Shown here: positions 1,122 to 41,486 of the stretch, in pieces
How the letters are laid out: each line of letters starts with the position of its first letter
Position numbering within the stretch: the first letter of the stretch is position 1
NCBI GenBank assembly: GCA_964442515.1
Contig: CAYUAC010000002.1
Span: 1-41,486, forward strand
Length of the DNA stretch: 41,486 bases
DNA from: an uncultured Campylobacterales bacterium
GTDB taxonomy: Bacteria; Campylobacterota; Campylobacteria; Campylobacterales; Sulfurovaceae
Direction of reading: 5' to 3'
The notes under the pieces: generated by a model
The model's database searches: none
What the model was told of the DNA's origin: nothing
Seen by the model: the letters and a program-made list of their open reading frames with translations, nothing else
Translations under genes and position numbers: made by a program

Positions 1122-1159
1122 ATTTTTCCTTTTTTGATAATATATCTCAGTATTTTACT

Positions 1160-1178: not shown

Positions 1179-1186
1179 AATACTAT

Positions 1187-3273: not shown

Positions 3274-4216
3274 CGAGTACCTTGGAAGTAACCTTGAGTT
3301 CGGCTATCAGCGTCACGTAATACGCCGTATGCAGTTTTTGGGCCAGATCATACAACCTGCGGGCATTGCCAAAATCATCCCCCTCGATCAGATGCAGGTT
3401 GTTTCGTATACGCCGCAGATATTGCAGCGTTTGTGCAAGTTCTTTATCCGCGCCGTAGCTTGTAAGCAGCGATCCGTAGTTTTTATGCGGGCCGGGACCC
3501 AGCACCCTGAGGTGGGTATCAACAATGGCCGCAATCGCCTGTTTGGACGTTTGGCTTCGATAATACTCGGCCCGGCCGTTATCGGGATCGTTTTCGTATT
3601 TGCGGCTCAGTCCCGCCGGATCGCCGATACGCCACTCTTTGAGTTTATAAGAACTTTGGCTGAGGGTATTGAGCACCATCGCGTTGGCACGTTTTTCATC
3701 CGAGACAAAGCGCCTGCTGTTTTGCTCATATCCTTGCACAATATCGCGCAGATACCCCTGAATGCTTTGGATGATAACAGTTGCGATGGCATTGACTCTT
3801 GCTTTAGAAGGATCATGCGCAAACAGAATATACTCCAGCGCATTGATCGATTTATAGGAGTGCTTGAAAAGGGCCGTTTGCACATCACCGTCACTGCGGA
3901 CTACGCGCTTGAGCTGTTGTGCGATATCTTCGTTGCCGTGGTGGAAAATATCGATATAGCGGGGCGTATCAAGATAGCTGCCGTCAAGTTCTCCCAGAAT
4001 ATAAAAGGTTTGGACGCTTTTCCACCGTGTCACCAGGGCGGTAAAATCATGACGCATCTGCCCGGGATCGTTGTGCGCTATTGTTTTTTCAAGCTTTTTG
4101 GCAGCCCCAACGGCTTCTTTTGCGTCTGCAAGCAAAATATTGGAATACAGAGACTGCAAATGCTCATTTGCATACACCACGTGAATAAAAACTGCAATAA
4201 TAATAAAAAACCTCAT
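3257..4216 (-). CDS. Imelysin-like (peptidase M75-like) periplasmic protein
   Basis: 319 aa with signal peptide MRFFIIIAVFIHVVYA and AAGGAG RBS. Placed in the classic imelysin/DUF1111/imelysin arrangement. The family call rests on context plus general helical imelysin-like composition. Confidence 0.65.
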   Translation of the reverse strand: MRFFIIIAVFIHVVYANEHLQSLYSNILLADAKEAVGAAKKLEKTIAHNDPGQMRHDFTALVTRWKSVQTFYILGELDGSYLDTPRYIDIFHHGNEDIAQQLKRVVRSDGDVQTALFKHSYKSINALEYILFAHDPSKARVNAIATVIIQSIQGYLRDIVQGYEQNSRRFVSDEKRANAMVLNTLSQSSYKLKEWRIGDPAGLSRKYENDPDNGRAEYYRSQTSKQAIAAIVDTHLRVLGPGPHKNYGSLLTSYGADKELAQTLQYLRRIRNNLHLIEGDDFGNARRLYDLAQKLHTAYYVTLIAELKVTSKVLDADGD

Positions 4217-4217
4217 C

Positions 4218-6933: not shown

Positions 6934-6950
6934 GTAAATCCTTTTCATTT

Positions 6951-6965
6951 TAATAATCAAAATCA
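6951..6965 (-). promoter_or_regulatory. Possible Fur-type AT-rich operator upstream of the imelysin operon
   Basis: TAATAATCAAAATCA matches the Helicobacter-type TAATAATNATTATTA box at 12 of 15 positions (hand count). A further GATAAT (reverse complement of ATTATC) lies at 7011-7016. This is a weak call in an AT-rich leader. Confidence 0.25.
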
Positions 6966-7038
6966 AATAATAACCAAACAAAACTTACAGTTTTATTAAT
7001 TGTGAGAAAGATTATCAGTATATTTTGTAAAAGGTGGA

Positions 7039-7533
7039 TTATATTCTGAAGCGGTACTCTTTTAACAGCGAGTATGCAATCCCGCCCAAAGCGATCACAT
7101 CAAAGGCTACGGTATACCACGCTCCGTGAATCAGCGCGTACGTCAGCCAGCAAAGGACCGAGACCAGTAAAATCAGTTTCATTTTCAGATTGTCATGCAA
7201 AATTGTTGCAATAGGCGTCATAATGCCTGCAAGCACCAGCAGCCAGCCCGAGGGTTCCTGCAGCTTGTACAGCAGATAAACCGTAAACAGCGGCAAAAAC
7301 AGTTTTAACCCCTTTTCTCCCTGTTTGAGCCCAAGCGCGCCTATAAAAAACAAAGAAGCGATCACTATCGTCTGCATCGCCCCGTGCAAGCCGCCGCTGA
7401 CATAGAGATCGGGGATTACGCACGCCGTCCCAAGACCGATAAACACTTTTGATTTGACTACATCATGCGAAGACATCCCCACGCCGCTGAAGATAATGGC
7501 AAAAACGCCCGCGATCGAAGCAAAAAGTTCCAT
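7039..7533 (-). CDS. YgjV-family inner membrane protein
   Basis: 164 aa, about five hydrophobic helices, size and pattern typical of YgjV-like proteins. No enzymatic motif. Confidence 0.55.
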   Translation of the reverse strand: MELFASIAGVFAIIFSGVGMSSHDVVKSKVFIGLGTACVIPDLYVSGGLHGAMQTIVIASLFFIGALGLKQGEKGLKLFLPLFTVYLLYKLQEPSGWLLVLAGIMTPIATILHDNLKMKLILLVSVLCWLTYALIHGAWYTVAFDVIALGGIAYSLLKEYRFRI

Positions 7534-7588
7534 AATGACCTTTGTGGAAATAAGTGCAATTGTAGCAAAAAATGAACTGAGCTGTTTG

Positions 7589-7837
7589 CTATTTGTAATG
7601 ATTGGTAATTGCTATAATTTCAATCGTGTCTTTATCAATATAGATAAAAATTGCTCGATACTTTTTATCAAGTCGAAATGAATAAATCAACCTATCTTTT
7701 GGCTCTAGTAATTCGGTATTTAAAGAGGGGTAAAACGGGTCATTTTCAAAAAGCTTCTTTGCTTTTTGATATTTTTTTGTTAAATTATGCTTTTGGAGAT
7801 AACTTTGCAAATCATCTCTTATGGCTTTAATTTTCAT
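7589..7837 (-). CDS. Type II toxin, RelE/ParE superfamily
   Basis: 82 aa. The C-terminal pattern LEPKDRLIYSFRLDKKYRAIFIYIDKDTIEIIAITNHY is typical of RelE/ParE-fold toxins. It overlaps the upstream small gene by 11 nt and is AT-rich relative to its neighbours. Confidence 0.7.
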   Translation of the reverse strand: MKIKAIRDDLQSYLQKHNLTKKYQKAKKLFENDPFYPSLNTELLEPKDRLIYSFRLDKKYRAIFIYIDKDTIEIIAITNHYK

Positions 7838-8066
7838 TATAAACCGAACTCTTTTTCAATCCATCTTCTAAATCTTTTAAGAAATCGGCCGAATATCCTT
7901 CTTTTTGAAAATCACTTATAATATTATCAACATTGTCTTTTTGAAATTTTTTAAAATAAAGCTCTTTTTCTACAATTTTCTTTTTAACTTCCTCTATTTC
8001 ATTTAAATTCATTTGAGAAATTAAATTTAAAATATTAGGCATTGATATATCGATTGCTAATTGCAT
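7827..8066 (-). CDS. Putative cognate antitoxin (small acidic helical protein)
   Basis: Start placed at ATG 8066 (MQLAIDISMPNILNLISQMNLNEIEE...) with an AGGAG RBS 8 nt upstream. It is 79 aa, sits upstream of the toxin and overlaps it. No confident family assignment. Confidence 0.55.
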   Translation of the reverse strand: MQLAIDISMPNILNLISQMNLNEIEEVKKKIVEKELYFKKFQKDNVDNIISDFQKEGYSADFLKDLEDGLKKSSVYNEN

Positions 8067-8187
8067 AATACACTCCTGTATTTCATTTAAGATAAACACT
8101 ATTTTATCAAAATGCTATATATCTTGTCTATAATCTATGTATTACAACCGCCTTGAACCGCATACTCTCTCCCCGCCCTCTTCTTGG

Positions 8188-8340
8188 TTAATTTTTCATA
8201 AAAAGATATATGCCCACAAAAAAACCGGCAGCACCGGCGATATAATACGTCATAACCCTGTCGGTATCCAAACCTGTCACAGCCTCTGTGAAACGAAACC
8301 GGATAAAGCCCTCACCATTTCTGTCTCTTTTGGAAATCAC
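8188..8340 (-). CDS. Possible 50-aa membrane-anchored peptide translationally coupled to the CDF gene
   Basis: The GTG at 8340-8338 overlaps the CDF stop (ATGTGA). The frame stays open to TAA 8190-8188 and ends in a TM-like stretch, TYYIAGAAGFFVGIYLFMKN. It is below the ORF-track length cutoff. Confidence 0.2.
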   Translation of the reverse strand: MISKRDRNGEGFIRFRFTEAVTGLDTDRVMTYYIAGAAGFFVGIYLFMKN

Positions 8341-9269
8341 ATATGCGAAGCGCAGTGGGCCTTGATCTGACTGTACTTTTGGGTCTCTGGCTGCAGTAAG
8401 ATATGCGTAATGCCAAAGCGTTCTTTGAACGTTTGCCGTATGCTTTCCAAAATATTTTCAACCTCTTCCAAGCTGTAGGTTTCATCCAAAACGATATGGG
8501 CTGAAAAAAACTTTTCTTCCGATGAGGGCGCGGTAAAGTGCAGATCGTGAAACTCTTTGACCGCATCAAAGCTATCAAGCACCTTTTCAAAACGTTTAAG
8601 ATCGGTAGGATTGGCATCAAGCAGGGCAAAAAAGCTCTCTTTGAGTATCGAAAAACTGCTTTTGATGATATATGCCCCGAAGATAAACGTGATGATGGGA
8701 TCAATCAGATAGTTTTGAAAATAATAGGTCGCCGCCCCGCCAAGCAGTACGCCAAGTGAGATCACCGCATCTCCCAGCATATGCAAAAACGCCGCTTTCA
8801 TATTCAAATCCTCACCGTGATCGTGGCAGCAATCCTCATCATACATCGACCCGTGCGCGTGCAGACCGTGGTAATTTCGAAGCAGGTACGCGCTTACGGC
8901 GTTGATCACAAGCGCTGCGGCGGCTACGACTATGACGCTGCCCGCTTCAATAGCCACGGGATTAAAAAAGCGCATCAGGGCTTCATACAAAACATACACC
9001 ATCGTAATAATCAAAAACAGCGAATTGATAAACGCTGCCATCATTTCGGCTTTGACATATCCGAAAGTCATCCTTGCCGTTGCCGCTTTCATCGCGTAAT
9101 ACGAAGCGATCAAGGCGACAAAAAGGGCCAGCACGTCGCCGAGGTTGTGCAGCGCGTCGGTGATGAGCGCCAGCGAATTGCTGACAGTACCAAAAACCAA
9201 CTCCAACGCTACGATCAGCAGGTTGATCGCGGCGACGATCACAATCGTTTTCATCTTTGTTTTTTGCAT
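8337..9269 (-). CDS. Cation diffusion facilitator (CzcD/ZitB-like) metal efflux transporter
   Basis: Six TM helices. Motifs: ALITDALHNLGD, HMLGDAVISLGV, a His/Asp-rich loop HAHGSMYDEDCCHDHGED, and a C-terminal cytoplasmic domain. AAGGA RBS. Confidence 0.9.
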   Translation of the reverse strand: MQKTKMKTIVIVAAINLLIVALELVFGTVSNSLALITDALHNLGDVLALFVALIASYYAMKAATARMTFGYVKAEMMAAFINSLFLIITMVYVLYEALMRFFNPVAIEAGSVIVVAAAALVINAVSAYLLRNYHGLHAHGSMYDEDCCHDHGEDLNMKAAFLHMLGDAVISLGVLLGGAATYYFQNYLIDPIITFIFGAYIIKSSFSILKESFFALLDANPTDLKRFEKVLDSFDAVKEFHDLHFTAPSSEEKFFSAHIVLDETYSLEEVENILESIRQTFKERFGITHILLQPETQKYSQIKAHCASHM

Positions 9270-9346
9270 ACGGTTCCTTTATAGTGTTACGTACTTATTA
9301 CATTAGGGATTTTTGCGGTACAATATACCAAAAAAGGCTTTATCAG

Positions 9347-10789
9347 ATGACAACATCCAAGTACCGCGTTGTCTTTATCATCACCCTGCTGCTTTTATCA
9401 CTCTCTATTGCGCTTTCGTTCTTAAACTATTCGGTATCGATGCAAAACGCAAAATCCCAGCTTAAAAACCAGTCGCTGCCCCTGTCTCTGGATAATATTT
9501 ACACCGTTATCCAAAAACACATCATCGAACCAAGCCTCATCTCTTCCATGATGGCAAACGACACCTTTTTGCATGACTGGCTGCACCACGAAAAAAGCAG
9601 AAGCGTCAACGAAGTCCGGCAATATCTGGGCGCCATCCAGCAGCGGTACGGGATGTTTAATACCTTTTTAGTCTCCGATATCACAAAAAATTATTACACG
9701 CATGAAGGCTTTGTCGAAAAGGTCAGCGCCAAACGCCCGAGAAATCAGTGGTATTACGATTTCAAACTTTCAGCCCCGACCCACGAGATCAATCTTGACC
9801 ACAATGAAAATTTTTCCAATGAACTGATCATGTTTATCAATCATAAAATCTTTGATCACGACCGCACTTATCTGGGCACCACCGGCGTTGCCATGAATCT
9901 GTCCTATATTGACGGTATTTTACGAGATTTTCGCACCAACCACAACTTTGTCGTTACATTTTTTGATAAAGAGGGCAAAGTCGTCCTGGCTGAACGCAAT
10001 GAAGATTTCACCGCCCACATCGACGATTTTGCGGTTTTGTCACAGTATAAAGATGAGATTCTTTCGCCAAAAAGCAGTATGATCGAGTACAAACAATACG
10101 GTTCCAGCCGCCTCCTGACAACCAAGTATATCCCCGAACTGAATCTTTTTTTAAGCGTTGAAGCCAAACTCTCGGATTTCACCAAAGATGTCAAAAAAGT
10201 CCTCATCTTAAATGTAGCCGTTTCAATCATGATTACGCTCATTGTCGCTTTTATCATCTATTATCTCATCAAAAACTACAGCAGAAAGCTTGAGTTTTAC
10301 TCCTCCCACGACCCGCTGACAAAGCTGCCCAACAGGCGCGACTTCGAACAAAAGTTCAAACACCATATCGCCCTGGCAAAACGCGACGCAAAACCCCATT
10401 CGATCCTGTTTTTAGATATCGATGATTTTAAAGCCATCAACGACAGTTTCGGCCACGCCACAGGCGACAGGGTTATCTGCCAGATAGCGCGCATCCTGGA
10501 AAACACGCTTCGCAAAACCGACCTGGTCGCACGGTGGGGCGGGGAGGAGTTTATCGCCGCACTCATTGACTGCGACAGCCAGATGGCGGTGCAAAACGCC
10601 CAGAAAATCCTGCAAACGATCAAACAGGATGCAATACTCGTCCAGATCACGGGCCGCCAGATTACTGCCAGCATCGGGGTAAGCACCCTGCGCGAAAGCG
10701 ATACGCTTGATTCAATCATTTCACGGGCCGATGACGCGATGTATGCAGCCAAAAACTCGGGCAAGAACAAAGTCACCTGTTATAAATGA
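9347..10789 (+). CDS. Diguanylate cyclase with N-terminal periplasmic (Cache-like) sensor domain
   Basis: Start at ATG 9347 (MTTSKYRVVFIITLLLLSLSIALS). TM, about 270-aa periplasmic region, TM, then a GGDEF domain (DIDDFKAINDSFGH, RWGGEEF). Confidence 0.9.
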   Translation: MTTSKYRVVFIITLLLLSLSIALSFLNYSVSMQNAKSQLKNQSLPLSLDNIYTVIQKHIIEPSLISSMMANDTFLHDWLHHEKSRSVNEVRQYLGAIQQRYGMFNTFLVSDITKNYYTHEGFVEKVSAKRPRNQWYYDFKLSAPTHEINLDHNENFSNELIMFINHKIFDHDRTYLGTTGVAMNLSYIDGILRDFRTNHNFVVTFFDKEGKVVLAERNEDFTAHIDDFAVLSQYKDEILSPKSSMIEYKQYGSSRLLTTKYIPELNLFLSVEAKLSDFTKDVKKVLILNVAVSIMITLIVAFIIYYLIKNYSRKLEFYSSHDPLTKLPNRRDFEQKFKHHIALAKRDAKPHSILFLDIDDFKAINDSFGHATGDRVICQIARILENTLRKTDLVARWGGEEFIAALIDCDSQMAVQNAQKILQTIKQDAILVQITGRQITASIGVSTLRESDTLDSIISRADDAMYAAKNSGKNKVTCYK

Positions 10790-10854
10790 CCGGATTTTTT
10801 TCCTGACAAAAATTTTGCTATCATAGTGGTATAGCAGCTTAAAAGGAGGCTGAT

Positions 10855-11073
10855 ATGGATATCCAAAGCAAAAGCTATGTTTTTGAATCCCCCTATCACT
10901 CCCGTATTCAGGTAGGCAGGGAAGACCCCAGCGCGTCAAAAGAGGAACAGGCAGATACGTTTACAAAGGATGCAAACCAACCCCTGCAAGAGGCCCAAAG
11001 TTTTCAAAACGCCCAGGAAAAGCCGGTGGAACCCAGGGTTACAACCGACGCTTTGCTGGATACCTACGCCTAA
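10855..11073 (+). CDS. Small hydrophilic protein of unknown function (72 aa)
   Basis: Strong AAGGAGG RBS 6 nt upstream of the ATG. Its stop at 11071-11073 lies 1 nt before the next start. Low-complexity, acidic/Gln-rich sequence. Confidence 0.5.
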   Translation: MDIQSKSYVFESPYHSRIQVGREDPSASKEEQADTFTKDANQPLQEAQSFQNAQEKPVEPRVTTDALLDTYA

Positions 11074-11074
11074 G

Positions 11075-11632
11075 ATGGGGCTGCGCTTTGAATACAGGCA
11101 CTTTGACGCAGACAGGGAGATACTGCATGTCTGGCAAAACGCTTTGCCCCGCGTATCGCACAAACATAGCAGCGAAACCTACACTCTTTTTCAAAACCGC
11201 AGCGATCTTAATATCAAAATCAGAAACCGGCGTATAGATATCAAAGAACTCCTCACGTGTAAAGAGGGGTTTCAACAGTGGCGTCCGCTGCCGCCTTTGC
11301 AAACCAGACTGCGTCTGGAAACGCTGGCTGCGGTACATGGCTTAGACTGCGATATATCCGATATACAAAGCTACCTCTATGCCTGCAAAAAACATCCAAG
11401 GGTTTCTGTCATTGATGTTGTAAAAGAGCGGACGATCTTTTATGAAAAAGGGGTTACTTTTGAATACGCGCAGGGAGTCACAGGGCAGCGCCCCTTTGCC
11501 TCCATCGCGATCGAATCAGAAGATACAGACGCGCTCAAACAAGCCTGCAGCCGTTTCAGTCTCTGCAAACACCAAAATCAGAGTTACCCTACTTTTTTGC
11601 TTTCTGACCGAGTGATTCAACCCAGCGTTTGA
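11075..11632 (+). CDS. CYTH-like (triphosphate tunnel) domain protein
   Basis: Start at ATG 11075 (MGLRFEYRHF). Alternating charged residues in predicted strands: FEYRHF, LNIKIRNRRIDIKEL, VVKERTIFYEKGVTFEYAQGV, FASIAIESED. This resembles the CYTH pattern ExExK ... KxR ... ExE. No HMM was run. Confidence 0.45.
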   Translation: MGLRFEYRHFDADREILHVWQNALPRVSHKHSSETYTLFQNRSDLNIKIRNRRIDIKELLTCKEGFQQWRPLPPLQTRLRLETLAAVHGLDCDISDIQSYLYACKKHPRVSVIDVVKERTIFYEKGVTFEYAQGVTGQRPFASIAIESEDTDALKQACSRFSLCKHQNQSYPTFLLSDRVIQPSV

Positions 11633-30645: not shown

Positions 30646-31055
30646 AAATCTTCGCCGCGGTCCTGCTTGCTTTAATCTTTACCTTCTTATTCCTGGTAGG
30701 GCTTAAGATCAACTATCTGGACCGCTACGGTGTTGAAATCTATTTTAACGCCTTTTTTTCCAGCAACCAGCCCTACGGATTTCTGTTTTTTTTCCTCTTC
30801 TGCCTTGCGGCGATGTATCTGCCCAAAAAGGGCGCGGGCGCGGGCGTATTATGCACGTTTGCCGTTGCTCTTAGCACGTTTTTTGCCGGTGACACCATCG
30901 GGATAAAACTCTACAGCCAGAAGGCGGCTTACACTATCGGAGAGTATACCACCCCGGATTTACAACTGTTATATTCTTACCGGGGAGTGGATTATGTGCT
31001 TTTTGCTGAAGATAAAAGCGTCAAAACCCTCAGTTCTGATTTGAGAACACGATAA
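30642..31055 (+). CDS. Hypothetical membrane protein
   Basis: ATGA overlap with the aminotransferase stop. Three hydrophobic helices. No motif recognised. Confidence 0.5.
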   Translation: MKIFAAVLLALIFTFLFLVGLKINYLDRYGVEIYFNAFFSSNQPYGFLFFFLFCLAAMYLPKKGAGAGVLCTFAVALSTFFAGDTIGIKLYSQKAAYTIGEYTTPDLQLLYSYRGVDYVLFAEDKSVKTLSSDLRTR

Positions 31056-31102
31056 TTGTGTTACAATAACAGACTTTAATATATGCCGTACAAGGGGCCG
31101 GG

Positions 31103-33661
31103 ATGAAGATCAAAACACTCAAAAACTATTTTCGCATCTCTATGATAACGATCACGTTTGCTATTTTCATACTCTTTTACGCTTTCTCCTCCTATCTGCA
31201 TACCGCGCTTACGATCAAAGAAAACAAACAGTTGGCAAACGCCGTCAGCGAACAGGTATTTGGATCGATGTATCAAGTCATGCGTCAGGGGTGGTCCAGG
31301 GGAGATTTGGAAGAGTTTATCAACTCCACGAAGAATTCTTTTGAAAAGACCTCTTATGATGTGGATATTTACCGGGGCGAAATCGTAGAAGAGTTGTATG
31401 GCACCATTGAACAGGATGCCTTCAGCAAAAACGTCAAAGGCGTTTTTGATACGGGAATGCGTTATGAAAGTTCTGATGACGCTTCGCTGAAGCTGATCAC
31501 GCCGATGAAAGCCGGCCAGGAGTGCCTTCAGTGCCATACCAACGCCAAGGTTGGGGATGTGCTGGGCGTTGTTTCAATCGATTATGATTTTTCCCAGACG
31601 ATCAAGGATACCCAGTTTAACTACCTGCTGTTTTCTCTGATTATTCTGCCGTTGATGTTTTTGATCACCTACCTGCTTTCAAAACATCTGCTAAGAAAGA
31701 TCGATGATTCTATCGGGATGTTTAACAAAAAGATTAAAAATATCAATTCGGTCAAGGATTTTAAAAACTTAGACACCTCCAACGTCAAGCAAAGCTTCAG
31801 CGAATTTGAAACAATGATGACTGAAGTCACCAGCTTAAGCCAAAAACTCAAAAATATCGCGGTGGATAAAGACATCCTGGAATTTGAAGTCAAACTGCTT
31901 GACAAGCTCATCATCACTTCCGAAGTGGTCAAGGATTGGAAGGAATATATCAAAGAACTGCTGGGTGAGATCAACCATGTATTGCCCGTATACTGCCTGA
32001 TTACGATCTTTAAAACCGAAGATGAAGTCTACGAAGTGGAAATCTTCTGGCTTGGCGAACCCGAAGCCCACATCAAAAAGTATCTGGAAGATCTGGCCCA
32101 GACCATGATCACAGAACACCACCACGTCACCACCACCGCCTCGGTCAACCATACCGTGGTCAATAAAAACAGCTGCCTCAACTCCATAGCCACCCACGAG
32201 ATTGAGCACGAAGCCAAATCGCTGCTGCTGGATGCGCCAAAGATCGGCGGCATCGTGGGGCTTGGCATCCAGGCCGATACCTCCAAAGACAGCGTGTACC
32301 ACATCGTCATCGATTCGATTCTGACCACGCTTTTAAACCTGGTCGGCTCGGTCAAGGCGATCCATAAATACACCGAAAACCTGGAGTTTTACGCCACCCG
32401 CGATCCGCTGACGGGGCTGTTTTCCCAGCGCGTTTTCAGAGACCTGTTGGATTATGAAATCAAAAGAGCCCACAGCCACGGTTACGAATTTGGCCTGCTG
32501 GTGATCGATTGCGATAACTTCAAACCCGTCAACGACACCTACGGCCACAGTTTCGGGGATGTTTTTTTAACCGAATTTGCCAACCTGCTGGAAGCCAATA
32601 AACGCGATGAGGATATTCTTTCACGTTACGGGGGCGACGAATTTACTATCGTGCTGCCCGAATCGGGACTGGAAGAGTCTTACCGGGTCGCCCAGCGTAT
32701 CCTGCGCGCGATCGAAGAGTTCAACCTCACAGCACCTGATGGCACCCAGGTCAATGTCACCGTTTCCATCGGTATCGCGATCTATCCCACCCACGCCCAG
32801 GATGCAACCGAACTGTTCAATATCGCCGATGCGATGATGTATAGGGCCAAAAATGAGGGCAAGGACGCGGTGCGAACGCCCAGTGAAGTGGAACTGGATG
32901 AGATCCACCAGGAAAGCAAGGACAAATCGATGCTGGTCCTTGATGCGGTCAAAAACGGCAATATTATTCCCCATTTCCAACCCATTATGAACGCGGCCAA
33001 CAACCGCATCGAGATCAATGAAGTATTGATGCGCATCGATCTGGACGGCCAGACTGTGACCGCCGGGCAGTTTATCCAGACGGCTGAAAGCCTTGGGATC
33101 GTACACCAGATGGATTATGTAGTCATTGAAAAAGCCTTTGCAAAACTGGTAGAGACCGGCTATGAGGGTGTATTGTTTATCAACCTCTCACCCAAGGCGC
33201 TGATCATCAGCGAATTCATGGAAAAGATCAATGCCTTAACCCACAAGTACAATATCCCAAAAAGCCGTATCGTTTTTGAAATCACCGAACGCGAAACGGT
33301 CAAAAGCTTTGCGGTTCTGGAAAAATTTGTCTTTAATCTCAAGCTGGAAGGTTTCCGCTTTGCCATCGATGATTTCGGTTCGGGCTTTTCCTCATTTCAC
33401 TATATCAAGAAGTTTCCGATCGATTTTGTCAAGATTGACGGGGATTTTATCGTCAATATCCACAAGGATGAAAAAGATTACGCTTTTGTCAAAAGCATCA
33501 TCTCCCTTGCCCATGAACTCGGGATTAAAACGATCGCCGAATTTGTCGAGGATGACGCGGTGCTGCAGTTTTTAAAAGAGGTCGATATCGATTACGTCCA
33601 GGGCTTTCATATCGCCAAACCCTCGGATCTGCTGGAGACAAGAACGTTTAAAGATTCCTGA
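31103..33661 (+). CDS. GGDEF-EAL signalling protein with N-terminal CXXCH-containing (DUF3365/Tll0287-like) periplasmic sensor
   Basis: N-terminal TM; sensor segment AGQECLQCHTNAKVGDVLGVVSIDY; second TM; GGDEF domain (RYGGDEF); EAL domain (FEITERE, DDFGSG, QGFHIAKP). Confidence 0.93.
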   Translation: MKIKTLKNYFRISMITITFAIFILFYAFSSYLHTALTIKENKQLANAVSEQVFGSMYQVMRQGWSRGDLEEFINSTKNSFEKTSYDVDIYRGEIVEELYGTIEQDAFSKNVKGVFDTGMRYESSDDASLKLITPMKAGQECLQCHTNAKVGDVLGVVSIDYDFSQTIKDTQFNYLLFSLIILPLMFLITYLLSKHLLRKIDDSIGMFNKKIKNINSVKDFKNLDTSNVKQSFSEFETMMTEVTSLSQKLKNIAVDKDILEFEVKLLDKLIITSEVVKDWKEYIKELLGEINHVLPVYCLITIFKTEDEVYEVEIFWLGEPEAHIKKYLEDLAQTMITEHHHVTTTASVNHTVVNKNSCLNSIATHEIEHEAKSLLLDAPKIGGIVGLGIQADTSKDSVYHIVIDSILTTLLNLVGSVKAIHKYTENLEFYATRDPLTGLFSQRVFRDLLDYEIKRAHSHGYEFGLLVIDCDNFKPVNDTYGHSFGDVFLTEFANLLEANKRDEDILSRYGGDEFTIVLPESGLEESYRVAQRILRAIEEFNLTAPDGTQVNVTVSIGIAIYPTHAQDATELFNIADAMMYRAKNEGKDAVRTPSEVELDEIHQESKDKSMLVLDAVKNGNIIPHFQPIMNAANNRIEINEVLMRIDLDGQTVTAGQFIQTAESLGIVHQMDYVVIEKAFAKLVETGYEGVLFINLSPKALIISEFMEKINALTHKYNIPKSRIVFEITERETVKSFAVLEKFVFNLKLEGFRFAIDDFGSGFSSFHYIKKFPIDFVKIDGDFIVNIHKDEKDYAFVKSIISLAHELGIKTIAEFVEDDAVLQFLKEVDIDYVQGFHIAKPSDLLETRTFKDS

Positions 33662-36649: not shown

Positions 36650-37780
36650 TTGAATTTTATTTCTAAACTCAAAAACCTTCTGCACTGGGAAGCCCAGCCA
36701 AAACCCCATATCAACTTAAATGCGCAGATATACAGTCTGCTGCAACCGTTTCGACTGCCTTTTATCCTCATTGTCCTGGTGATGATGCTTGGTACGGTAG
36801 GCTACATGGTTATTGACGATTTTCCTTTAATGGACGCCATCTATCAAACCGGTATCACCTTTACCACCGTGGGCTTTGGCGAGATCGCGCCTATCAGTGA
36901 TCAGGGGCGTGTCTTTACGGTCACGCTTATTATCATCGGTTTTTTGATCTTTACGATCTCCATCGGTATCGTCGCCGAAGCACTCAAAAGCGGCGAACTG
37001 CAAAAACTTATAAAGGAGCGCAAAATGCTCTATAAAATCGCCCGGCTCAAAAGACATTTTGTTATCTGCTACCAAAACGAATTCACCATCCAGGTAGCCG
37101 ACCAGCTCAAACAGGCCCACGTCCCCTTTGTTATCATCGATCCAGGCGACGATATAGAACATGTCGCCAAGAAACAGGGCTATACCTACTACCTGCAAGC
37201 CCATCCCCACACCAACGAAGCGATGCTCAAATCCTTTCTTTCCAGTGCCAAGGGGTTGATTACGCTGGCTGACAATATCGCCGACAATATCGCCACGATC
37301 ACTTCGGCCAGGCTGTATGAACAGGAAATCGTCAAAAAAACGCCGTTTCAGATTATTTCAAAAGCCAACAATTCCGGCGACCATGAAAAGCTTAAGAAAC
37401 TGGGAGCGGACAATACCGTCATCCCCACAAAACTGATGGCCCAGAGAGTGGGTTCTATGGCCCTGCGTCCGGATATGGTCAATATTATGGAGCGCTTCAT
37501 GTATTCCGGCGACAGCGCGCTGGATATGGAAGAGGTGGAAGTACCAAAACGAAGCTGGCTGGTCCTTAAAAAGATAAAAGATACGCACTTTCGTGATTTT
37601 ACCAACGTCTCCATCGTCGGTATCCGCAGAAAAGACGGCGTGTTCAAATCGATGCCAAGTTCCAAAGAACTCATTACCGGCCAGTGCAAACTCTTACTGA
37701 TCGGCAAAGCCGAGGGCATCAGCCTGACAAAACAGTTGATCAATAAAAACAAAAAACCAAAGGAACTCAGCTATGTTTAA
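36650..37780 (+). CDS. Potassium channel protein with RCK/TrkA domains
   Basis: TTG start. Two TMs flanking the selectivity filter TTVGFGE, then TrkA-N-like (HFVICYQNEFT) and TrkA-C-like regions. Confidence 0.85.
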   Translation: MNFISKLKNLLHWEAQPKPHINLNAQIYSLLQPFRLPFILIVLVMMLGTVGYMVIDDFPLMDAIYQTGITFTTVGFGEIAPISDQGRVFTVTLIIIGFLIFTISIGIVAEALKSGELQKLIKERKMLYKIARLKRHFVICYQNEFTIQVADQLKQAHVPFVIIDPGDDIEHVAKKQGYTYYLQAHPHTNEAMLKSFLSSAKGLITLADNIADNIATITSARLYEQEIVKKTPFQIISKANNSGDHEKLKKLGADNTVIPTKLMAQRVGSMALRPDMVNIMERFMYSGDSALDMEEVEVPKRSWLVLKKIKDTHFRDFTNVSIVGIRRKDGVFKSMPSSKELITGQCKLLLIGKAEGISLTKQLINKNKKPKELSYV

Positions 37781-38954
37781 CGCAATCCCCGTCAAAGGCG
37801 GTTTTAACTGTCTGGATGATTTTTACAGCGGCGGAATCCACGCCGGGTTCAAACCCAACGAAGAACTTGACCTTGGCTTTATCAGAAGCGACAAACCCTG
37901 TTCGCTGTCGTATCTTTTTACCAAAAACCGTTTTAAAGCCGCGCCTTTGAAACATGTTTTGCAAAACGGTTTCAAACAGTGCGATTTTATCCTGCTGAAT
38001 TCAAAAAATGCCAATGCCCTTACCGGGGAGCAGGGCTTAAAAGATGTCGATACGCTGCTTGAACATGTCCGACAAACCCACAAAGCCACAAGCCCGATCA
38101 TGAGTTCAACCGGTGTCATCGGGGTATGCTTAGATACCGACAAACTCAAAAACGGCATCAATAATCTCGATATCAATGAAAAAAACAGCCACGCCGCGGC
38201 AAAAGCGATCATGACCACCGACAGCGGACCCAAAGAGTGCGCCTATGAAGTCGAACTTGATGACGGCAGCAGCTTCAAGGTTGCGGGAATCGCCAAGGGA
38301 GCTGGGATGATCGATCCGAGTATGGCGACGATGCTCTGTTTTATCGCCACAGACGCCGATATTCCCGATGAGCATATGCACACGGCGTTAAAAGAAGCCA
38401 ACGAAATCTCGTTTAACGCAATCAGCGTGGACGGAGACCGCTCGACCAATGATTCGGTGTTTTTGATGAGTTCAAAAAGCGGAGCGTATGAACAAAAAGC
38501 GTTTCAATTTGCCCTGGACCGGGTCATGCAGGAACTGGCGCTAAAGATCGTCGGGGACGGAGAAGGGGCCACAAAACTGGCGGCATTTCACGTCAAAGGC
38601 GCAAAAGACGACTACGAGGCAAAACTGGCGGCAAAGAAACTGAGCAATTCGCTGCTGGTAAAAACCGCGCTTTTTGGCCAAGACCCAAACTGGGGCCGGA
38701 TCGCTTCTACCATCGGGGCAAGCGAAGTTACGTGCAGCGAAGAAAGTTTACGGATTTTCTTTGATGACCTGCTCATTTACGACAAGGGCAGCGTATATTT
38801 TGATCAGGAAAATGAAAACAAAGCCGCCGAAATCATGGGCCAAAGCAGCTTTAAAATCACCTGCGATCTGGGCGCCGGCGAGGGAGAGTATACCGCATAC
38901 GGATGCGACCTTGGCTATGAATACGTAAAAATCAACGCCGATTACAGAACGTAA
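37773..38954 (+). CDS. argJ: Bifunctional glutamate N-acetyltransferase / amino-acid acetyltransferase
   Basis: KGAGMIDPSMATMLCFIATDA (autoprocessing site), SVDGDRSTNDS, GQDPNWGRI, C-terminal INADYRT. Confidence 0.95.
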   Translation: MFNAIPVKGGFNCLDDFYSGGIHAGFKPNEELDLGFIRSDKPCSLSYLFTKNRFKAAPLKHVLQNGFKQCDFILLNSKNANALTGEQGLKDVDTLLEHVRQTHKATSPIMSSTGVIGVCLDTDKLKNGINNLDINEKNSHAAAKAIMTTDSGPKECAYEVELDDGSSFKVAGIAKGAGMIDPSMATMLCFIATDADIPDEHMHTALKEANEISFNAISVDGDRSTNDSVFLMSSKSGAYEQKAFQFALDRVMQELALKIVGDGEGATKLAAFHVKGAKDDYEAKLAAKKLSNSLLVKTALFGQDPNWGRIASTIGASEVTCSEESLRIFFDDLLIYDKGSVYFDQENENKAAEIMGQSSFKITCDLGAGEGEYTAYGCDLGYEYVKINADYRT

Positions 38955-38961
38955 GCTGTCA

Positions 38962-38989
38962 TTTACAATAACAAATGTTATTCTATAAA
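38962..38989 (+). promoter_or_regulatory. Sigma70-like promoter for the TnsE-like gene
   Basis: TTTACA (38962-38967), 16-nt spacer, TATAAA (38984-38989). AAAGGAG RBS 7 nt before the TTG at 39017. Confidence 0.3.
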
Positions 38990-39016
38990 GAAAAATGTTA
39001 CTAAAGGAGTGAAGAT

Positions 39017-40696
39017 TTGGCTAAAAATGACAATCAAATTCTCAACTTCTTTAATCAGCACAAAAATGAACCTTTTGAGTTTATAATTGTTACTGATATA
39101 AATCTCAAACTCCACCCAAACTACTACAAAGCAATTTTTAAAAACATTAAAACAGGTGCTTTTCACGCAACAGAAATAACTCCTGAAATGATGCGGTATA
39201 AATATAAAGTCGGTCATATATACACTAACGGTAAACATGTCGGACAAAACCCCTCTTTGCTAAAAGCTGAATTTAGAGTTAATAAAAACACTGATATTGA
39301 AGTAGACCGCCTATCTCATCATATCAACCAAGATGAAGTAAAGAATATCATTGATTACGAAGATGTATATAAATACTTATTGCGGCAATATGTACATGTA
39401 GAAAAACAAGATGAATTTACTTTGATAATCCCTTGCTATACAATTGCAAACAGGTTTTATTTTTTGTCTTCATCAATGAAACATGCAATTATGAGCACAA
39501 CACTTGAAGAACTATACTACAAAGGGAGTTTTCATCATGATATTAATAAAAAAGGTGAAACTATTGTAAAGCTTCACATTAAAAAGAAAGCAGGGAAAAA
39601 AGACCTGCCGTTTATATGCCGTTTTGCAGGCAGTACTTTTGCACAAAATAGGCTCAAATACCTCAATGAACAAAAATCATTGAGTGAGAATAGAGAATAC
39701 CAACCGATAAAAGCACAGTTTCCAGTTAGAAACTCTTTTGATATATATGCCTCATATATTTATGTAGGTGATGATGAAAGAGGCGAGCCAAAGTATTTGG
39801 TACTCAATATTCACTCAGACAACTCGCCGCTTGGTTTTAGTAAAATTTATTATAAGCAATATAGTGCAAAACAAGATCCAAAAGAGATAGAACCAGGTCA
39901 TTATGACATCCCTCCCAGACCAAAAAATAAATTTAAGAAAAAAAAGCCTAAACGAACAAATACGATTTATACAGGAATACCTTCTAGTGAATACCTAAGA
40001 TATACGCTTCATACTCGTGAAGAGGAATATTACAAAAATCATGTATCTATATATGGATCAACTATTCACGGGGAAGGCGAAAGTAACTCAGAATTAAAAG
40101 TCGAAAGTTCTGAAAACAAAGTTGGAGGTAGCTTTGAACCTCCTTCAAGCAATGGAGATGAAAACTTAGGCGAAGTTATAACTTCAAATGATGTAGACGG
40201 AAAAGACAAAGAAAAGAAGATTTTTAACCTAAACAACTTTAACCAGTTCTATGAAGCACTGTTAAGCTATGCCTATGTAGATGGCTCTGAGCTTTTTGGA
40301 CCCTTTGAACTGAATAAAATAAGAAATGACAAACGAAAGTCTGTCAAATCAAAATCTATCTTGTTTGGAAATGAAAATGATCCAAGGCGATTTCTTTTTG
40401 GAATACTGTCTTATAACAAAAAAATGATCTATATAGTTGAAATAGAACAGGATTTAACCTGGGGACCATCTACATGGATATTTTTTACAGATGAGAATAC
40501 TCAACAATATTCTGAAGATGATATGAAAAAAATCATAGAACATTACATTCAAAAAAATTTGAAGTATACAAAGCTTACTGATTACGTAAAAAATAACTAT
40601 TCACTTTCTTTTGCTCAAAAAGAACATAGAAATGGTGATATTGATGATGATAGTGTTGAAAGATGGTGTGAGAGTGTTTTGAGGAAAGTTACATAA
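39017..40696 (+). CDS. TnsE-like protein (Tn7 transposition target-selector family), orphan arrangement
   Basis: 559 aa. Compared with Tn7 TnsE recalled from memory, it matches in three regions. First, LIIPCYTIANRFYFLSSSMKHAIMSTTLEELY versus YHIPQLELARSLFLINSYFCRSCLSSTALQQEF. Second, a charged low-complexity linker, then NFNQFYEALLS versus FANRFAAFDELLS and PRRFLFGILSYNKKMIYIVEIEQD versus PRVIKAVGVQRNGSEFVLLEVDASD. Third, the C-terminal SVERWCESVLRKV versus MEGWAERVVREQF. The size is similar (559 versus ~538 aa). Not verified by search. Confidence 0.45.
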   Translation: MAKNDNQILNFFNQHKNEPFEFIIVTDINLKLHPNYYKAIFKNIKTGAFHATEITPEMMRYKYKVGHIYTNGKHVGQNPSLLKAEFRVNKNTDIEVDRLSHHINQDEVKNIIDYEDVYKYLLRQYVHVEKQDEFTLIIPCYTIANRFYFLSSSMKHAIMSTTLEELYYKGSFHHDINKKGETIVKLHIKKKAGKKDLPFICRFAGSTFAQNRLKYLNEQKSLSENREYQPIKAQFPVRNSFDIYASYIYVGDDERGEPKYLVLNIHSDNSPLGFSKIYYKQYSAKQDPKEIEPGHYDIPPRPKNKFKKKKPKRTNTIYTGIPSSEYLRYTLHTREEEYYKNHVSIYGSTIHGEGESNSELKVESSENKVGGSFEPPSSNGDENLGEVITSNDVDGKDKEKKIFNLNNFNQFYEALLSYAYVDGSELFGPFELNKIRNDKRKSVKSKSILFGNENDPRRFLFGILSYNKKMIYIVEIEQDLTWGPSTWIFFTDENTQQYSEDDMKKIIEHYIQKNLKYTKLTDYVKNNYSLSFAQKEHRNGDIDDDSVERWCESVLRKVT

Positions 40697-40737
40697 TATT
40701 CTAAAGAATTTTAATATTATCTACTTTAATGATATAT

Positions 40738-41486
40738 TTATTCAGCGAACCATTCACGCATCTTATCATACTCTAATGAATATTTATTAATTCTGAAAAT
40801 TCCAATACTTGACTGGCTAGAATAATGAGATGTAAAAGGATAGCGGAAATGAATTGATATTCCTGCGTTTGTAAAAAACGTATTTTCACACATATAAAAG
40901 ATTAAGCTACCAAGAGCTTGAGCTTTAGTGGCCAGAGATGCAATATATATATTTCTTATATTAGAATGTATTTTTAAATATGCATGTATATAGTTTGAAA
41001 TGACTTTTGCAGTTTCAAAAGGATTATTAGCTGGAGCAGTTAAAGGTTCAAGAGTATGATCAATTTTTAGTGATGTTTGAGCTTTTTCAATATTGATTAA
41101 ATTTTCTTGATACATAATTGGCTGTAGGGCAGGATAGCCAATCAAAACAGTTGTTTCATTTACTTGAATATCTTGAAGCACACTTTTTACTAATCGTGAA
41201 TCATATCCAGCATTGACTATGAATAAATCATCTGAAGAAGGTTCAAAGTACTCTTGATCAATCATCATAATGTTTCTATTAATTAAAATATCCTTCTGAG
41301 CAAATTCTGTATTAGATGATTCTTTATATGCTTTCGGTTCAGAATAAATGATATCAATATTGGTAAATTTTAAATGTTTTAGATAAGGCAATAAAAATAT
41401 CATATATGGTTTTATGAAGCCAGAAATATCAATACATATAGACATTTCTGGAGTTAATTTTGCATACTTTAAGAATTCAAGTATAT
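40738..41486 (-). CDS. Hypothetical alpha/beta (Rossmann/CARF-like) protein, possibly 5'-truncated by the window edge
   Basis: The tracked ATG is at 41445, but the same frame stays open to 41486 (ILEFLKYAKLTPE before the Met). Alternating strand/helix pattern: ICIDISGF..., IDIIYSEP, LFIVNAGYD, TVLIGYPA, NIYIASLATKAQALG. This is reminiscent of Csa3/CARF-type ligand-binding folds. AT-rich. Confidence 0.55.
   Translation of the reverse strand, partial: ILEFLKYAKLTPEMSICIDISGFIKPYMIFLLPYLKHLKFTNIDIIYSEPKAYKESSNTEFAQKDILINRNIMMIDQEYFEPSSDDLFIVNAGYDSRLVKSVLQDIQVNETTVLIGYPALQPIMYQENLINIEKAQTSLKIDHTLEPLTAPANNPFETAKVISNYIHAYLKIHSNIRNIYIASLATKAQALGSLIFYMCENTFFTNAGISIHFRYPFTSHYSSQSSIGIFRINKYSLEYDKMREWFAE

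What the first reader, a model, noticed from the sequence alone, without database searches (positions are those of the whole stretch)
38955..41486. AT-rich island begins exactly at the argJ stop codon and runs off the window
Everything up to 38954 is mid-GC core genome with tight operons. From 38955 onward both strands become strongly AT-rich: hand counts of single 60-nt lines give 31/60 G+C inside argJ and 17/60 inside the island. The two ORFs here have no relation to the neighbouring metabolism. Insertion within a few bases of the 3' end of a conserved housekeeping gene is the signature of site-specific homing elements such as Tn7-like transposons and integrative islands. It is also where defence or accessory cargo usually sits. 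This is the only place in the window where an undescribed system could plausibly reside, and it is truncated.
Basis: partly seen in the sequence, partly recalled or inferred. Interest (0 to 1): 0.75.

Follow-up and report, generated by a model that had tools for sequence, protein, structure and literature searches.

The report
Tn7-like transposon docked behind argJ
The AT-rich stretch after argJ is the left end of a Tn7-like jumping gene that inserts 1-2 bases after the argJ stop codon in sulfur-oxidising Campylobacterota, and it carries a TnsE gene plus variable, probably anti-phage, cargo; it is a new member of a known kind, not a new kind of system.

Summary
G+C drops from 0.476 (1-38956) to 0.304 (38957-41486). 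No other 2.5-kb stretch of the window falls below 0.406.

The boundary is a transposon terminus. A 26-bp end, TGTCATTTACAATAACAAATGTTATT, starts at 38957, two bases after the argJ stop codon. The same end lies 1-2 nt after the argJ stop in 21 junctions from Sulfurimonadaceae and related genomes. Four relatives have both ends and a 5-bp target duplication that overlaps the stop codon.

Complete relatives read: argJ | left end, tnsE, variable cargo, then tniQ, tnsC, tnsB and tnsA on the opposite strand, right end.

The 559-aa ORF (39017-40696) is a remote TnsE. Its predicted C-terminal domain matches only TnsE structures, and 14 of 35 family members hit Pfam TnsE_C.

The truncated minus-strand ORF (40738 to the window end) is a CARF/SAVED-like sensor. 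In seven loci elsewhere, five of them independent, it is the last gene of a PRTase, ORC/Cdc6-like ATPase, CARF cassette, usually with a methyltransferase. That cassette often rides on Tn7-like elements.

A TnsE gene at the left end, on the opposite strand, is already described for Tn6022-like transposons. The argJ site and this lineage appear undescribed in the held literature. The window is a whole contig, so the transposase genes and right end are unseen.

The parts
38895..38954 (+). 3' end of argJ, the presumptive attachment site recognised by the element's TniQ/TnsD-type target selector
   Evidence: ArgJ Pfam hit at E 2e-128. The last ~60 nt are conserved at codon positions 1 and 2 across 20 loci, and the element always abuts them. 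The flank beyond the right end is not conserved. That TniQ binds here is inference by analogy with TnsD binding the 3' end of glmS.
38952..38956 (.). TAAGC, the presumptive left copy of the 5-bp target-site duplication; it includes the argJ stop codon
   Evidence: Four relatives with both ends carry 5-bp duplications in this register: L013 GTAAG, L014 TAAAA, S. lithotrophica TTAGT, L001/L026 ATAAT. The right copy lies outside the window, so the duplication is not verifiable here.
38957..38982 (+). Terminal inverted repeat of the left end, TGTCATTTACAATAACAAATGTTATT; it contains the first TnsB-site-like motif, ACAATAACAAATGTTAT, at 38965-38981
   Evidence: The same terminus is present in 21 argJ junctions. 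Homology to elements at a different insertion site (L009, L010) starts exactly at the TGT. Inverted copies occur at right ends in L013, L014, L025 and L026.
38984..39001 (+). Second direct copy of the TnsB-site-like motif (...AAAGAAAAATGTTAC), about 21 bp inside the first; it overlaps the tnsE promoter/RBS region
   Evidence: A two-copy arrangement is conserved at the left end in L001, L013, L014 and L023. Binding by TnsB is inferred, not shown.
39017..40696 (+). tnsE: remote homologue of the Tn7 target selector TnsE, 559 aa, TTG start with an AAGGAG RBS at 39004-39009; full length
   Evidence: Pfam TnsE_C at E 1.7e-3 for this protein, and 14 of 35 family members hit it (best 5.9e-7). AlphaFold model pLDDT 73; the top 7 Foldseek PDB hits are all TnsE C-terminal domains (5d17, 5d16, 9d5l; probability 1.0, TM 0.56-0.66). 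NCBI names a 36%-identical homologue 'Tn7-like element transposition protein TnsE'. Its divergence tracks that of TnsC and TniQ across elements.
40738..41486 (-). First cargo gene: CARF/SAVED-like sensor protein ('CARF6' family); C-terminal ~249 of ~335 aa, with the 5' end beyond the contig
   Evidence: PADLOC PDLC01914 'CARF6--CARF_CARF_CARF' at E 4e-63, covering profile positions 96-310 of 311. Homologues are 310-350 aa. The model of the 74%-identical P0198 has pLDDT 90 and matches CARF domains of Cam1, Csm6, Can2 and Card1 (probability 1.0) and, over its whole length, SAVED domains. It always follows an ORC-CDC6-like ATPase and a PRTase-CE gene.

Best explanation
Positions 38957-41486 are the left-end segment of a Tn7-like (heteromeric-transposase) transposon. 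Its lineage homes to the 3' end of argJ in Sulfurimonadaceae and related Campylobacterota.

Proposed mechanism:
1. The element's TniQ/TnsD-type protein recognises the conserved last codons of argJ.
2. It recruits TnsC and the TnsA/TnsB transposase.
3. The element is inserted 1-2 nt after the stop codon, with the tnsE-bearing end next to argJ. A 5-bp duplication containing the stop codon is made, so argJ stays intact.
4. The first gene inside the end is a remote TnsE. By analogy with Tn7 and Tn6022 it provides a second, sequence-independent pathway into replicating or conjugating DNA.
5. Between tnsE and the oppositely oriented tniQ-tnsC-tnsB-tnsA block lies exchangeable cargo.

In this window the cargo begins with a CARF/SAVED-like sensor. 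Elsewhere that gene ends a cassette of PRTase, ORC/Cdc6-like ATPase and CARF, with or without a methyltransferase. The cassette is presumably an anti-phage module.

The low G+C (0.30 against 0.48) means the element arrived recently from a low-G+C relative.

Shown: the composition step; the terminus and its position; the TnsE and CARF identities; and, in relatives, the element architecture, target duplications and site specificity.

Inferred: that this copy still has its transposase genes and right end; which protein reads argJ; the TnsE pathway; and the cargo's function.
For: - Composition: G+C and GC3 step at 38957.
- Position: the 26-bp terminus starts 1 nt (19 cases) or 2 nt (the window and L014) after the argJ stop in 21 junctions.
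- True terminus: homology to elements inserted elsewhere (L009, L010, in dprA) begins exactly at TGTCATTT.
- Both ends plus 5-bp duplications: two internally deleted mini-elements (L013 GTAAG, L014 TAAAA) and two full elements (S. lithotrophica CP043617, 14.2 kb, TTAGT; CANMJR010000023, 16.8 kb, ATAAT).
- Core genes in complete relatives: TnsA (PF08722/PF08721), TnsB (Mu-transpos_C), TniB/TnsC, TniQ.
- TnsE identity.
- Horizontal spread: TnsE is 65-68% identical between the window and Sulfurimonas loci, while argJ is 53-56%. The nearest relative, L021, is 84.7% identical in DNA inside the element against 73.6% in the flank. The element stays at 0.31-0.34 G+C in hosts of 0.46-0.52 (L004, L015).
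- Target selector: TniQ diverges more between attachment-site classes (37-40%) than TnsC does (48-54%).
- Cargo: it differs in every locus.
- Precedent: a TnsE gene at the left end on the opposite strand, with TnsE-dependent transposition shown, in Tn6022 (PMC10293859, PMC11014353).
Against: - The window contains no transposase gene, no right end and no second copy of the target duplication. This particular copy could therefore be a decayed remnant, as about half of the related loci are.
- Only one or two clear TnsB-site-like repeats are visible per end, fewer than the 3 + 4 of Tn7.
- No empty argJ site was recovered for direct comparison.
- The tnsE-side ('left') end is next to the target gene, the opposite of prototypic Tn7 at glmS. 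Direct recognition of argJ is therefore less secure by analogy.
- No plasmid-borne copy was found that would support a TnsE pathway.
Confidence: 0.9

Rival explanations
1. It is a Tn7-like element, but this copy is an immobile fossil: a left end, tnsE and some cargo whose transposase genes and/or right end have been lost, now serving only as a fixed accessory island.
For: In 10 of the 20 genome loci only N-terminal tnsE fragments of 71-175 aa remain. Termini are mutated in L011 (TAT) and L017 (TTT). L013 and L014 are internally deleted mini-elements. The window's contig stops 2.5 kb into the element, so nothing beyond that is known.
Against: Here tnsE is full length and aligns over 100% of its homologues. 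The terminal TGT and both site-like repeats are intact. In L001, L003, L005, L009, L023 and L024, full-length tnsE is accompanied by tniQ and tnsC, and by tnsB and tnsA where the locus reaches that far. Contig breaks inside such elements are common (L021 and L022 break at the same place).
Confidence: 0.25
2. The ORF after argJ is an ordinary, vertically inherited neighbour of argJ in this bacterial group, and its AT-richness reflects the gene's own constraints rather than mobility.
For: The same gene follows argJ at the same spacing in 19 genome loci and in L021-L023. That is what conserved synteny would look like.
Against: It is bounded by an inverted-repeat terminus with 5-bp duplications. 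It also occurs at other sites (dprA, mnmG) with the same tns partners. It is more conserved than argJ and holds 0.31-0.34 G+C whatever the host composition. It has the TnsE C-terminal fold.
Confidence: 0.03
3. It is an integrative island or prophage remnant moved by a tyrosine or serine recombinase that uses the argJ 3' end as attB.
For: Insertion at the 3' end of a conserved gene and an AT-rich variable cargo also fit integrase-borne islands. One homologue of the CARF cassette sits next to a tyrosine integrase in Aliarcobacter butzleri.
Against: No integrase is present in any of the argJ-linked loci. Instead there are tnsA, tnsB, tnsC and tniQ. The ends are TGT...ACA inverted repeats with a 5-bp duplication whose sequence differs between hosts. 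That is not a direct repeat of an att core.
Confidence: 0.02
4. The junction at 38955 is an assembly or binning chimera joining a mid-GC genome to unrelated AT-rich DNA.
For: The contig ends inside the AT-rich part. One related contig (L006) is binned in a 'Gracilibacteria' MAG, which shows that such low-GC pieces confuse binning.
Against: The same argJ | TGTCATTT junction occurs in two independent JGI samples of a close relative (L021, L022), in a closed genome (CP043617), and in 17 other assemblies.
Confidence: 0.02

Closest known systems
Tn6022-family Tn7-like transposons (AbaR backbone, Acinetobacter; comM-targeting)
   Same: Both carry tnsA, tnsB, tnsC and tniQ at one end, and a remote TnsE homologue at the far (left) end on the opposite strand, with cargo in between. 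Both have TGT/ACA termini and 5-bp duplications, and both form tandem or nested copies at the attachment site. Sources: PMC10293859 and PMC11014353; here.
   Different: No TnsF (inactivated tyrosine recombinase) gene is operonic with tniQ in L023; the neighbouring gene is convergent and has no Pfam hit. The target is the intergenic base or two after the argJ stop, which leaves the gene intact, rather than the interior of comM. The host phylum is Campylobacterota. tblastn of TnsE against 72,556 plasmids found no match, so the relation to Tn6022 TnsE is at best remote. Direct comparison with Tn6022 proteins was not run.
Prototypic Tn7 (tnsABCDE; attTn7 downstream of glmS)
   Same: Both have a heteromeric TnsA+TnsB transposase, a TnsC ATPase, a TniQ-domain site selector and TnsE. 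Both home just downstream of a conserved housekeeping gene without disrupting it, make a 5-bp duplication and have TGT termini.
   Different: tnsE is not in the tns operon; it is inverted at the other end. TniQ is short (374-379 aa, against 508 aa for TnsD) and lacks a TnsD C-terminal Pfam hit. Insertion is 1-2 nt after the stop codon rather than about 25 bp downstream. The tnsA-distal end faces the target gene, whereas Tn7 puts its right end next to glmS (own knowledge). Fewer end repeats are recognisable.
Tn5053/Tn402 family (tniA, tniB, tniQ, tniR)
   Same: TniB (313 aa) and TniQ (about 375 aa) have sizes and Pfam families like TniB and TniQ of this family. The terminal inverted repeats are short, about 25 bp.
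   Different: TnsA is present, which implies cut-and-paste rather than replicative transposition. There is no resolvase or res site. The target is a chromosomal gene end, not a plasmid res site.
CARF/SAVED sensors of type III CRISPR and CBASS (Csm6, Can2, Card1, Cam1, Cap4/Cap5)
   Same: The cargo protein has the CARF fold, and over its whole length a SAVED-like double-CARF fold. PADLOC places it in 'CARF6'.
   Different: It has no fused effector domain. No cas10 or CD-NTase cyclase lies nearby in any of the loci examined. Instead it is fixed in an operon with a PRTase-CE and an ORC/Cdc6-like ATPase, with or without a methyltransferase.

Membership tests
Tn7-like transposon | Terminal inverted repeats beginning 5'-TGT, with subterminal repeated TnsB-binding sites | tested here: met
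   Window 38957-38982 starts with TGT and is repeated in inverted form at right ends of relatives. A second direct copy lies at 38984-39001. Only 1-2 sites per end are recognisable by eye, and binding was not tested.
Tn7-like transposon | 5-bp target-site duplication | tested here: met
   Met in four relatives: GTAAG, TAAAA, TTAGT, ATAAT. The window itself cannot be tested because its right end is missing; only the presumptive left copy, TAAGC at 38952-38956, is visible.
Tn7-like transposon | TnsB-type DDE transposase, TnsC/TniB AAA+ regulator and a TniQ-domain target selector encoded in the element | tested here: inconclusive
   None of these genes lies in the window, because the contig ends 2.5 kb into the element. 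They are present in complete relatives with the same terminus and the same tnsE: L023/L025, L026, L003, L005.
Tn7-like transposon | TnsA endonuclease (heteromeric cut-and-paste transposase) | tested here: inconclusive
   Not in the window. A 215-aa TnsA (PF08722, with or without PF08721) is present in the S. lithotrophica element and in 77 homologues.
Tn7-like transposon | Site- and orientation-specific insertion next to a conserved gene | tested here: met
   21 of 21 argJ junctions have the same end, in the same orientation, 1-2 nt after the stop codon. Their duplication sequences differ, which indicates independent events.
TnsE (Tn7 target selector) | TnsE C-terminal DNA-binding domain (PF18623 fold) | tested here: met
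   Foldseek's top 7 PDB hits are all TnsE C-terminal domains (probability 1.0, TM 0.56-0.66). Pfam TnsE_C hits 14 of 35 family members. The window protein itself scores 18.7 bits, below the 26.7-bit cut-off.
TnsE (Tn7 target selector) | N-terminal region with OB/PriB-like folds and a beta-clamp-binding motif; directs insertion into replicating or conjugating DNA | not tested
   The model shows a beta-rich N-terminal half, but no separate fold search was run. No clamp motif was searched for. Function needs a mating-out assay.
Tn6022-like subfamily | Remote tnsE near the left end, on the strand opposite to tnsABC-tniQ | tested here: met
   Seen in L023, L001/L026, L003, L005, L009, L024 and L030. 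The window shows the left-end tnsE part.
Tn6022-like subfamily | TnsF (inactivated tyrosine recombinase) co-operonic with tniQ; comM target | tested here: not met
   No Phage_integrase-like gene follows tniQ in L023, L026, L024 or L030. The target is argJ (or dprA, or mnmG), not comM.
CARF superfamily (CARF6 group) | Rossmann-like CARF fold; match to curated CARF6 profiles | tested here: met
   PADLOC PDLC01914 at E 4e-63. The model of the 74%-identical homologue matches CARF domains at probability 1.0. Ligand binding was not tested.
Type III CRISPR ancillary module | Linkage to cas10/type III genes or a CRISPR array | tested here: not met
   None of the seven loci that carry homologues shows cas genes. 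There is no CRISPR-like repeat in 38900-41486.

The most novel reading that the evidence does not exclude
The cargo that begins at 40738 is a conserved, experimentally uncharacterised nucleotide-sensing defence cassette: a CARF/SAVED-like sensor, an ORC/Cdc6-like AAA+ ATPase and a PRTase-CE phosphoribosyltransferase, usually with an N6/N4 DNA methyltransferase. It has no cyclase or cas10. It is repeatedly carried by Tn7-like transposons of very different lineages, from canonical Tn7 in Acinetobacter to the argJ-, dprA- and mnmG-homing elements of Campylobacterota. In that case the window would hold the edge of an undescribed immune system. Its signal might be made or consumed by the PRTase and read by the stand-alone CARF protein.
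Probability: 0.4. Interest if true: 0.6.

Novelty: new member of a known kind. Interest (0 to 1): 0.4.

Why it matters
- It adds a new safe-harbour site, the base or two after the argJ stop codon, and a new host group (sulfur-oxidising Campylobacterota) to the catalogue of Tn7-like homing elements. These elements are the raw material for programmable DNA-insertion tools.
- The left-end, opposite-strand tnsE architecture known from Acinetobacter Tn6022 turns out to be much more widespread. Sister lineages have retargeted to dprA and mnmG while TniQ diverged faster than TnsC.
- For genome annotation, the recurrent 'argJ then hypothetical protein' pair in these genomes is a transposon junction, not conserved synteny. 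Low-G+C cargo of this kind breaks assemblies and can mislead binning.
- The argJ locus is a defence-gene hotspot where new systems, including the CARF/ORC/PRTase cassette, can be collected.

Tried and rejected
- Extending the contig. Exact-protein look-ups of the window's TnsE and ArgJ found nothing. The homologue table shows that the window is the whole 41486-base contig. The closest relative (87% TnsE; L021, L022) also breaks just after tnsE.
- Empty-site search. The single metagenome scan, seeded with ArgJ, returned one distant locus at 39% identity and no empty site.
- Sequence-only annotation of the 559-aa ORF. NCBIfam and PADLOC gave nothing. A profile search of PDB sequences gave nothing at E <= 1. 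Only Pfam across the family and the fold search resolved it.
- Plasmid copies of TnsE. There was no tblastn match in PLSDB.
- Literature. No held paper combines Tn7-like with argJ, or Sulfurimonas with Tn7 in any relevant way. No paper was found for the CARF6/PRTase-CE/ORC-CDC6-like cassette. The CARF census paper (PMC7498327) is not held.
- Other features in 38500-41486. No tRNA in the window, no Rfam family and no meaningful internal repeats.
- Tn5053-like identity. I first read the 313-aa TniB and ~376-aa TniQ as Tn5053-like, meaning no TnsA and replicative transposition. I rejected this once TnsA was found.
- The right-flank gene as the real target. I considered this because Tn7 normally puts its tnsA end next to the target. 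I rejected it because right flanks differ between genomes while argJ is constant.
Full report
**1. The observation**

The compositional step is real and sharp. G+C is 0.476 for 1-38956 and 0.304 for 38957-41486. Among 729 other 2530-nt windows of the contig the minimum is 0.406 (mean 0.475, SD 0.020) (profiles). Third-position G+C falls from 0.57-0.59 (K+ channel gene, argJ) to 0.26 and 0.18 in the two island ORFs.

argJ (37773-38954; Pfam ArgJ E 2e-128) ends with TAA at 38952-38954. The island holds two ORFs:
- a 559-aa ORF at 39017-40696 on the + strand, with a TTG start preceded by AAGGAG;
- a minus-strand ORF from 40738 that stays open to the last base of the window.

The window is an entire 41486-base contig, so it cannot be extended from its own assembly. 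Exact-protein look-ups failed.

**2. The boundary is a transposon terminus**

A scan of one genome per species returned 20 loci with relatives of the 559-aa protein. All come from Sulfurimonas, Sulfuricurvum or other Campylobacterales. In 17 of them the homologue, or an N-terminal fragment of it, sits right after argJ.

Aligning the junctions shows that similarity outside the coding regions starts at a fixed motif, TGTCATTTACAAGAACAAAAGTTAC. In two Sulfuricurvum loci the gene lies at a different chromosomal site, and there the similarity begins exactly at that TGT.

Over 21 argJ junctions, including the window, two contigs of a close relative and the closed genome of S. lithotrophica, the motif starts 1 nt after the stop codon in 19 cases. 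It starts 2 nt after in the window and in L014. In the window it occupies 38957-38982. A second copy of its inner half follows about 21 bp further in (38984-39001), just upstream of the ORF's ribosome-binding site.

**3. Both ends and target duplications in relatives**

Inverted copies of the same 26 bp occur downstream in L013 and L014. They delimit 0.9-kb and 1.2-kb internally deleted mini-elements flanked by 5-bp direct repeats, GTAAG and TAAAA.

Look-ups through TnsA homologues supplied the right ends of two full elements:
- In S. lithotrophica CP043617 the element spans 1718695-1732883 (14.2 kb) and is flanked by TTAGT.
- In CANMJR010000023 it spans 16.8 kb and is flanked by ATAAT.

The duplication always contains the stop codon, so argJ is left intact. 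The duplicated pentamers differ between hosts, so these are independent insertions rather than one inherited event. In S. lithotrophica a second left-end-like terminus lies directly beyond the right-hand duplication. That indicates a newer copy inserted between argJ and an older, decayed one. L014 has two left ends 79 bp apart.

**4. Architecture**

Complete copies read: argJ | left IR, tnsE, cargo, then tniQ (374-379 aa; PF06527), tniB/tnsC (313 aa; PF05621), tnsB (about 620 aa; Mu-transpos_C) and tnsA (215 aa; PF08722/PF08721), all on the opposite strand. Two or three further small genes follow, then the right IR.

Cargo differs in every locus. Examples are a DndB/TGT/radical-SAM cluster, a RES-domain gene, and a methyltransferase + PRTase-CE + ORC-CDC6-like set.

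About half of the loci retain only 71-175 N-terminal codons of the first gene. Two loci have mutated termini: TAT in L011 and TTT in L017. Decay at this site is therefore common.

**5. The 559-aa protein is a remote TnsE**

- By itself it scores below the Pfam threshold for TnsE_C (E 1.7e-3), but 14 of 35 diverse family members hit that model (best 5.9e-7).
- An AlphaFold model built on the family alignment (pLDDT 73) returns the three TnsE C-terminal-domain entries (5d17, 5d16, 9d5l) as its top seven matches. These are the only PDB matches at probability 1.0; their TM-scores are 0.56-0.66. The next hits are noise.
- NCBI names a 36%-identical homologue TnsE.
- Its pairwise divergence between elements parallels that of TnsC and TniQ, so it co-evolves with the transposition genes and is a component of the element, not cargo.

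Across attachment-site classes TniQ is the most diverged core protein (37-40% identity, against 48-54% for TnsC). That pattern is expected if TniQ reads the target.

**6. Horizontal origin**

TnsE of the window is 65-68% identical to the Sulfurimonas copies, while ArgJ is only 53-56% identical. Against the closest relative (L021), DNA identity is 84.7% inside the element and 73.6% in the flanking K+ channel gene. The element keeps 0.31-0.34 G+C in hosts whose core genes are 0.46-0.52 (L004, L015, the window). Recurrent presence after argJ is therefore homing, not synteny.

**7. How it most likely works**

By analogy with Tn7 and with the experimentally reconstituted Tn6022 (PMC11014353), the steps would be:
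1. TniQ binds the conserved 3' codons of argJ.
2. TnsC bridges to TnsA/TnsB bound at the ends.
3. The element inserts in one orientation just past the stop codon.
4. TnsE offers an alternative route into replicating or conjugating DNA.

These steps are inferred; nothing in the window tests them.

The tnsA-distal end faces the target gene, unlike Tn7 at glmS (own knowledge). I considered that the gene on the other side might be the true target. Right flanks vary between genomes while argJ is constant, so I rejected that.

**8. The cargo gene**

The truncated minus-strand ORF matches PADLOC's CARF6 profile (E 4e-63, profile positions 96-310 of 311). Homologues are 310-350 aa, so about 90 N-terminal residues lie beyond the contig.

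A high-confidence model of the 74%-identical homologue (pLDDT 90) matches CARF domains of Cam1, Csm6, Can2 and Card1. Over its full length it matches SAVED domains. It is thus a stand-alone nucleotide-sensor-like protein.

In every context examined it is the last gene of an operon, preceded by an ORC-CDC6-like ATPase (PF24389) and a PRTase-CE (PF24390), usually with a DNA methyltransferase upstream. Those contexts are:
- L029, the nearest homologue;
- L030, another Tn7-like element, behind mnmG, whose first gene is a 23%-identical TnsE relative;
- L024, where the 301-aa gene in this position matches the window's CARF protein only weakly (25% identity, pairwise E 3e-4);
- an integrase-linked island in Aliarcobacter butzleri;
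- canonical tnsC-tnsD-tnsE Tn7 elements in Acinetobacter.

No cas10 or cyclase is nearby in any of them. I found no paper on this cassette in the held library. The CARF census that presumably defined 'CARF6' is not held, so I cannot say how much is already described. The prediction for this genome is that an ORC-CDC6-like gene follows immediately beyond 41486.

**9. Comparison with what is known**

Faure et al. [quoted passage not shown] Peters and colleagues (PMC11014353) showed TnsE-dependent transposition for Tn6022. So the architecture is known.

This lineage differs in four ways:
- it lacks TnsF;
- it leaves its target gene intact;
- it uses argJ;
- it lives in Campylobacterota.

Neither argJ as a Tn7-like attachment site nor Tn7-like elements in Sulfurimonas turned up in the library. 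I did not place the proteins in the published trees, so 'Tn6022-like' is an architectural statement, not a demonstrated clade membership.

**10. Verdict**

It is the left end of an argJ-homing Tn7-like transposon. That makes it a new member of a known kind, with an intact tnsE and the edge of a possibly uncharacterised CARF-containing cargo cassette. The main uncertainty is whether this copy is complete, because the contig ends inside the cargo.

Noticed in passing
L024 9676-12444; L010 9727-9978 and 16943-17719; L009 13020-13793: Sister elements in Sulfuricurvum and Sulfurimonas sp. SWIR-19 are inserted inside the competence gene dprA, at about codon 90 or about codon 59. They leave a 5' fragment, yet a full-length dprA lies inside or after the element. 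That copy is only 63% or 46% identical to the fragment. It is possibly a transposon-borne replacement of the gene the element interrupts. Its G+C (0.40-0.41) is nearer to the host than to the cargo, so which copy is foreign is unresolved.
   Followed up: partly
L030 2991-3075 and 19801-19920: A distant relative (TnsE 23% identical) sits directly behind mnmG/gidA. Its end repeats (AAGTTTGATAATG, three copies) overlap the called mnmG stop codon, so the element may supply the last codons of mnmG. Inverted copies lie about 17 kb away. It carries the full methyltransferase/PRTase-CE/ORC-CDC6-like/CARF cassette and a GmrSD gene.
   Followed up: partly
L033, L034, L035 (Acinetobacter) 1-8960; L032 (Aliarcobacter butzleri) 5727-11622: In Acinetobacter the same CARF cassette follows directly after tnsC-tnsD-tnsE of canonical Tn7 elements. 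In A. butzleri it lies between two tyrosine-integrase genes and lacks the methyltransferase. The cassette therefore moves between unrelated mobile elements. In L034 its ORC-CDC6-like gene is split in two.
   Followed up: partly
L025 7270-7300 (S. lithotrophica CP043617); L014 9863 and 9942: There are tandem or nested copies at the attachment site. In S. lithotrophica an older left-end terminus abuts the right-hand duplication of the intact element and is followed by SOD and DUF2231 genes. In L014 there are two left ends 79 bp apart, the second starting about 20 nt into the first copy's tnsE. This suggests weak or lapsed target immunity.
   Followed up: partly
L006 (JAQVFO010000014, labelled Candidatus Gracilibacteria MAG): This 12-kb contig starts with the last ~100 nt of a Sulfurimonadaceae-type argJ and the same transposon end and tnsE, followed by cargo at 0.22-0.28 G+C. 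It is probably mis-binned because of the cargo's composition.
   Followed up: no
L026 14293-20172 (= L001 cargo): The cargo of the CANMJR010000023 element is a cluster of three DndB-like genes, a TGT (tRNA-guanine transglycosylase-like) gene and a radical-SAM gene. It is reminiscent of 7-deazaguanine DNA-modification (dpd-type) systems. I did not analyse it further.
   Followed up: no
L025 7325-9889; L026 7543-9224: Two or three small cargo genes lie between the right inverted repeat and tnsA: a RES-domain protein in one element and a DUF5677 protein in the other. Cargo is therefore carried on both sides of the tns block, and tnsA is 2-2.7 kb from the right terminus.
   Followed up: no
window 7001-8000 and 31001-32000: There are two smaller G+C dips elsewhere in the window (0.382 and 0.418, against about 0.475). 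They are much weaker than the island. No copy of the transposon terminus lies in them.
   Followed up: no
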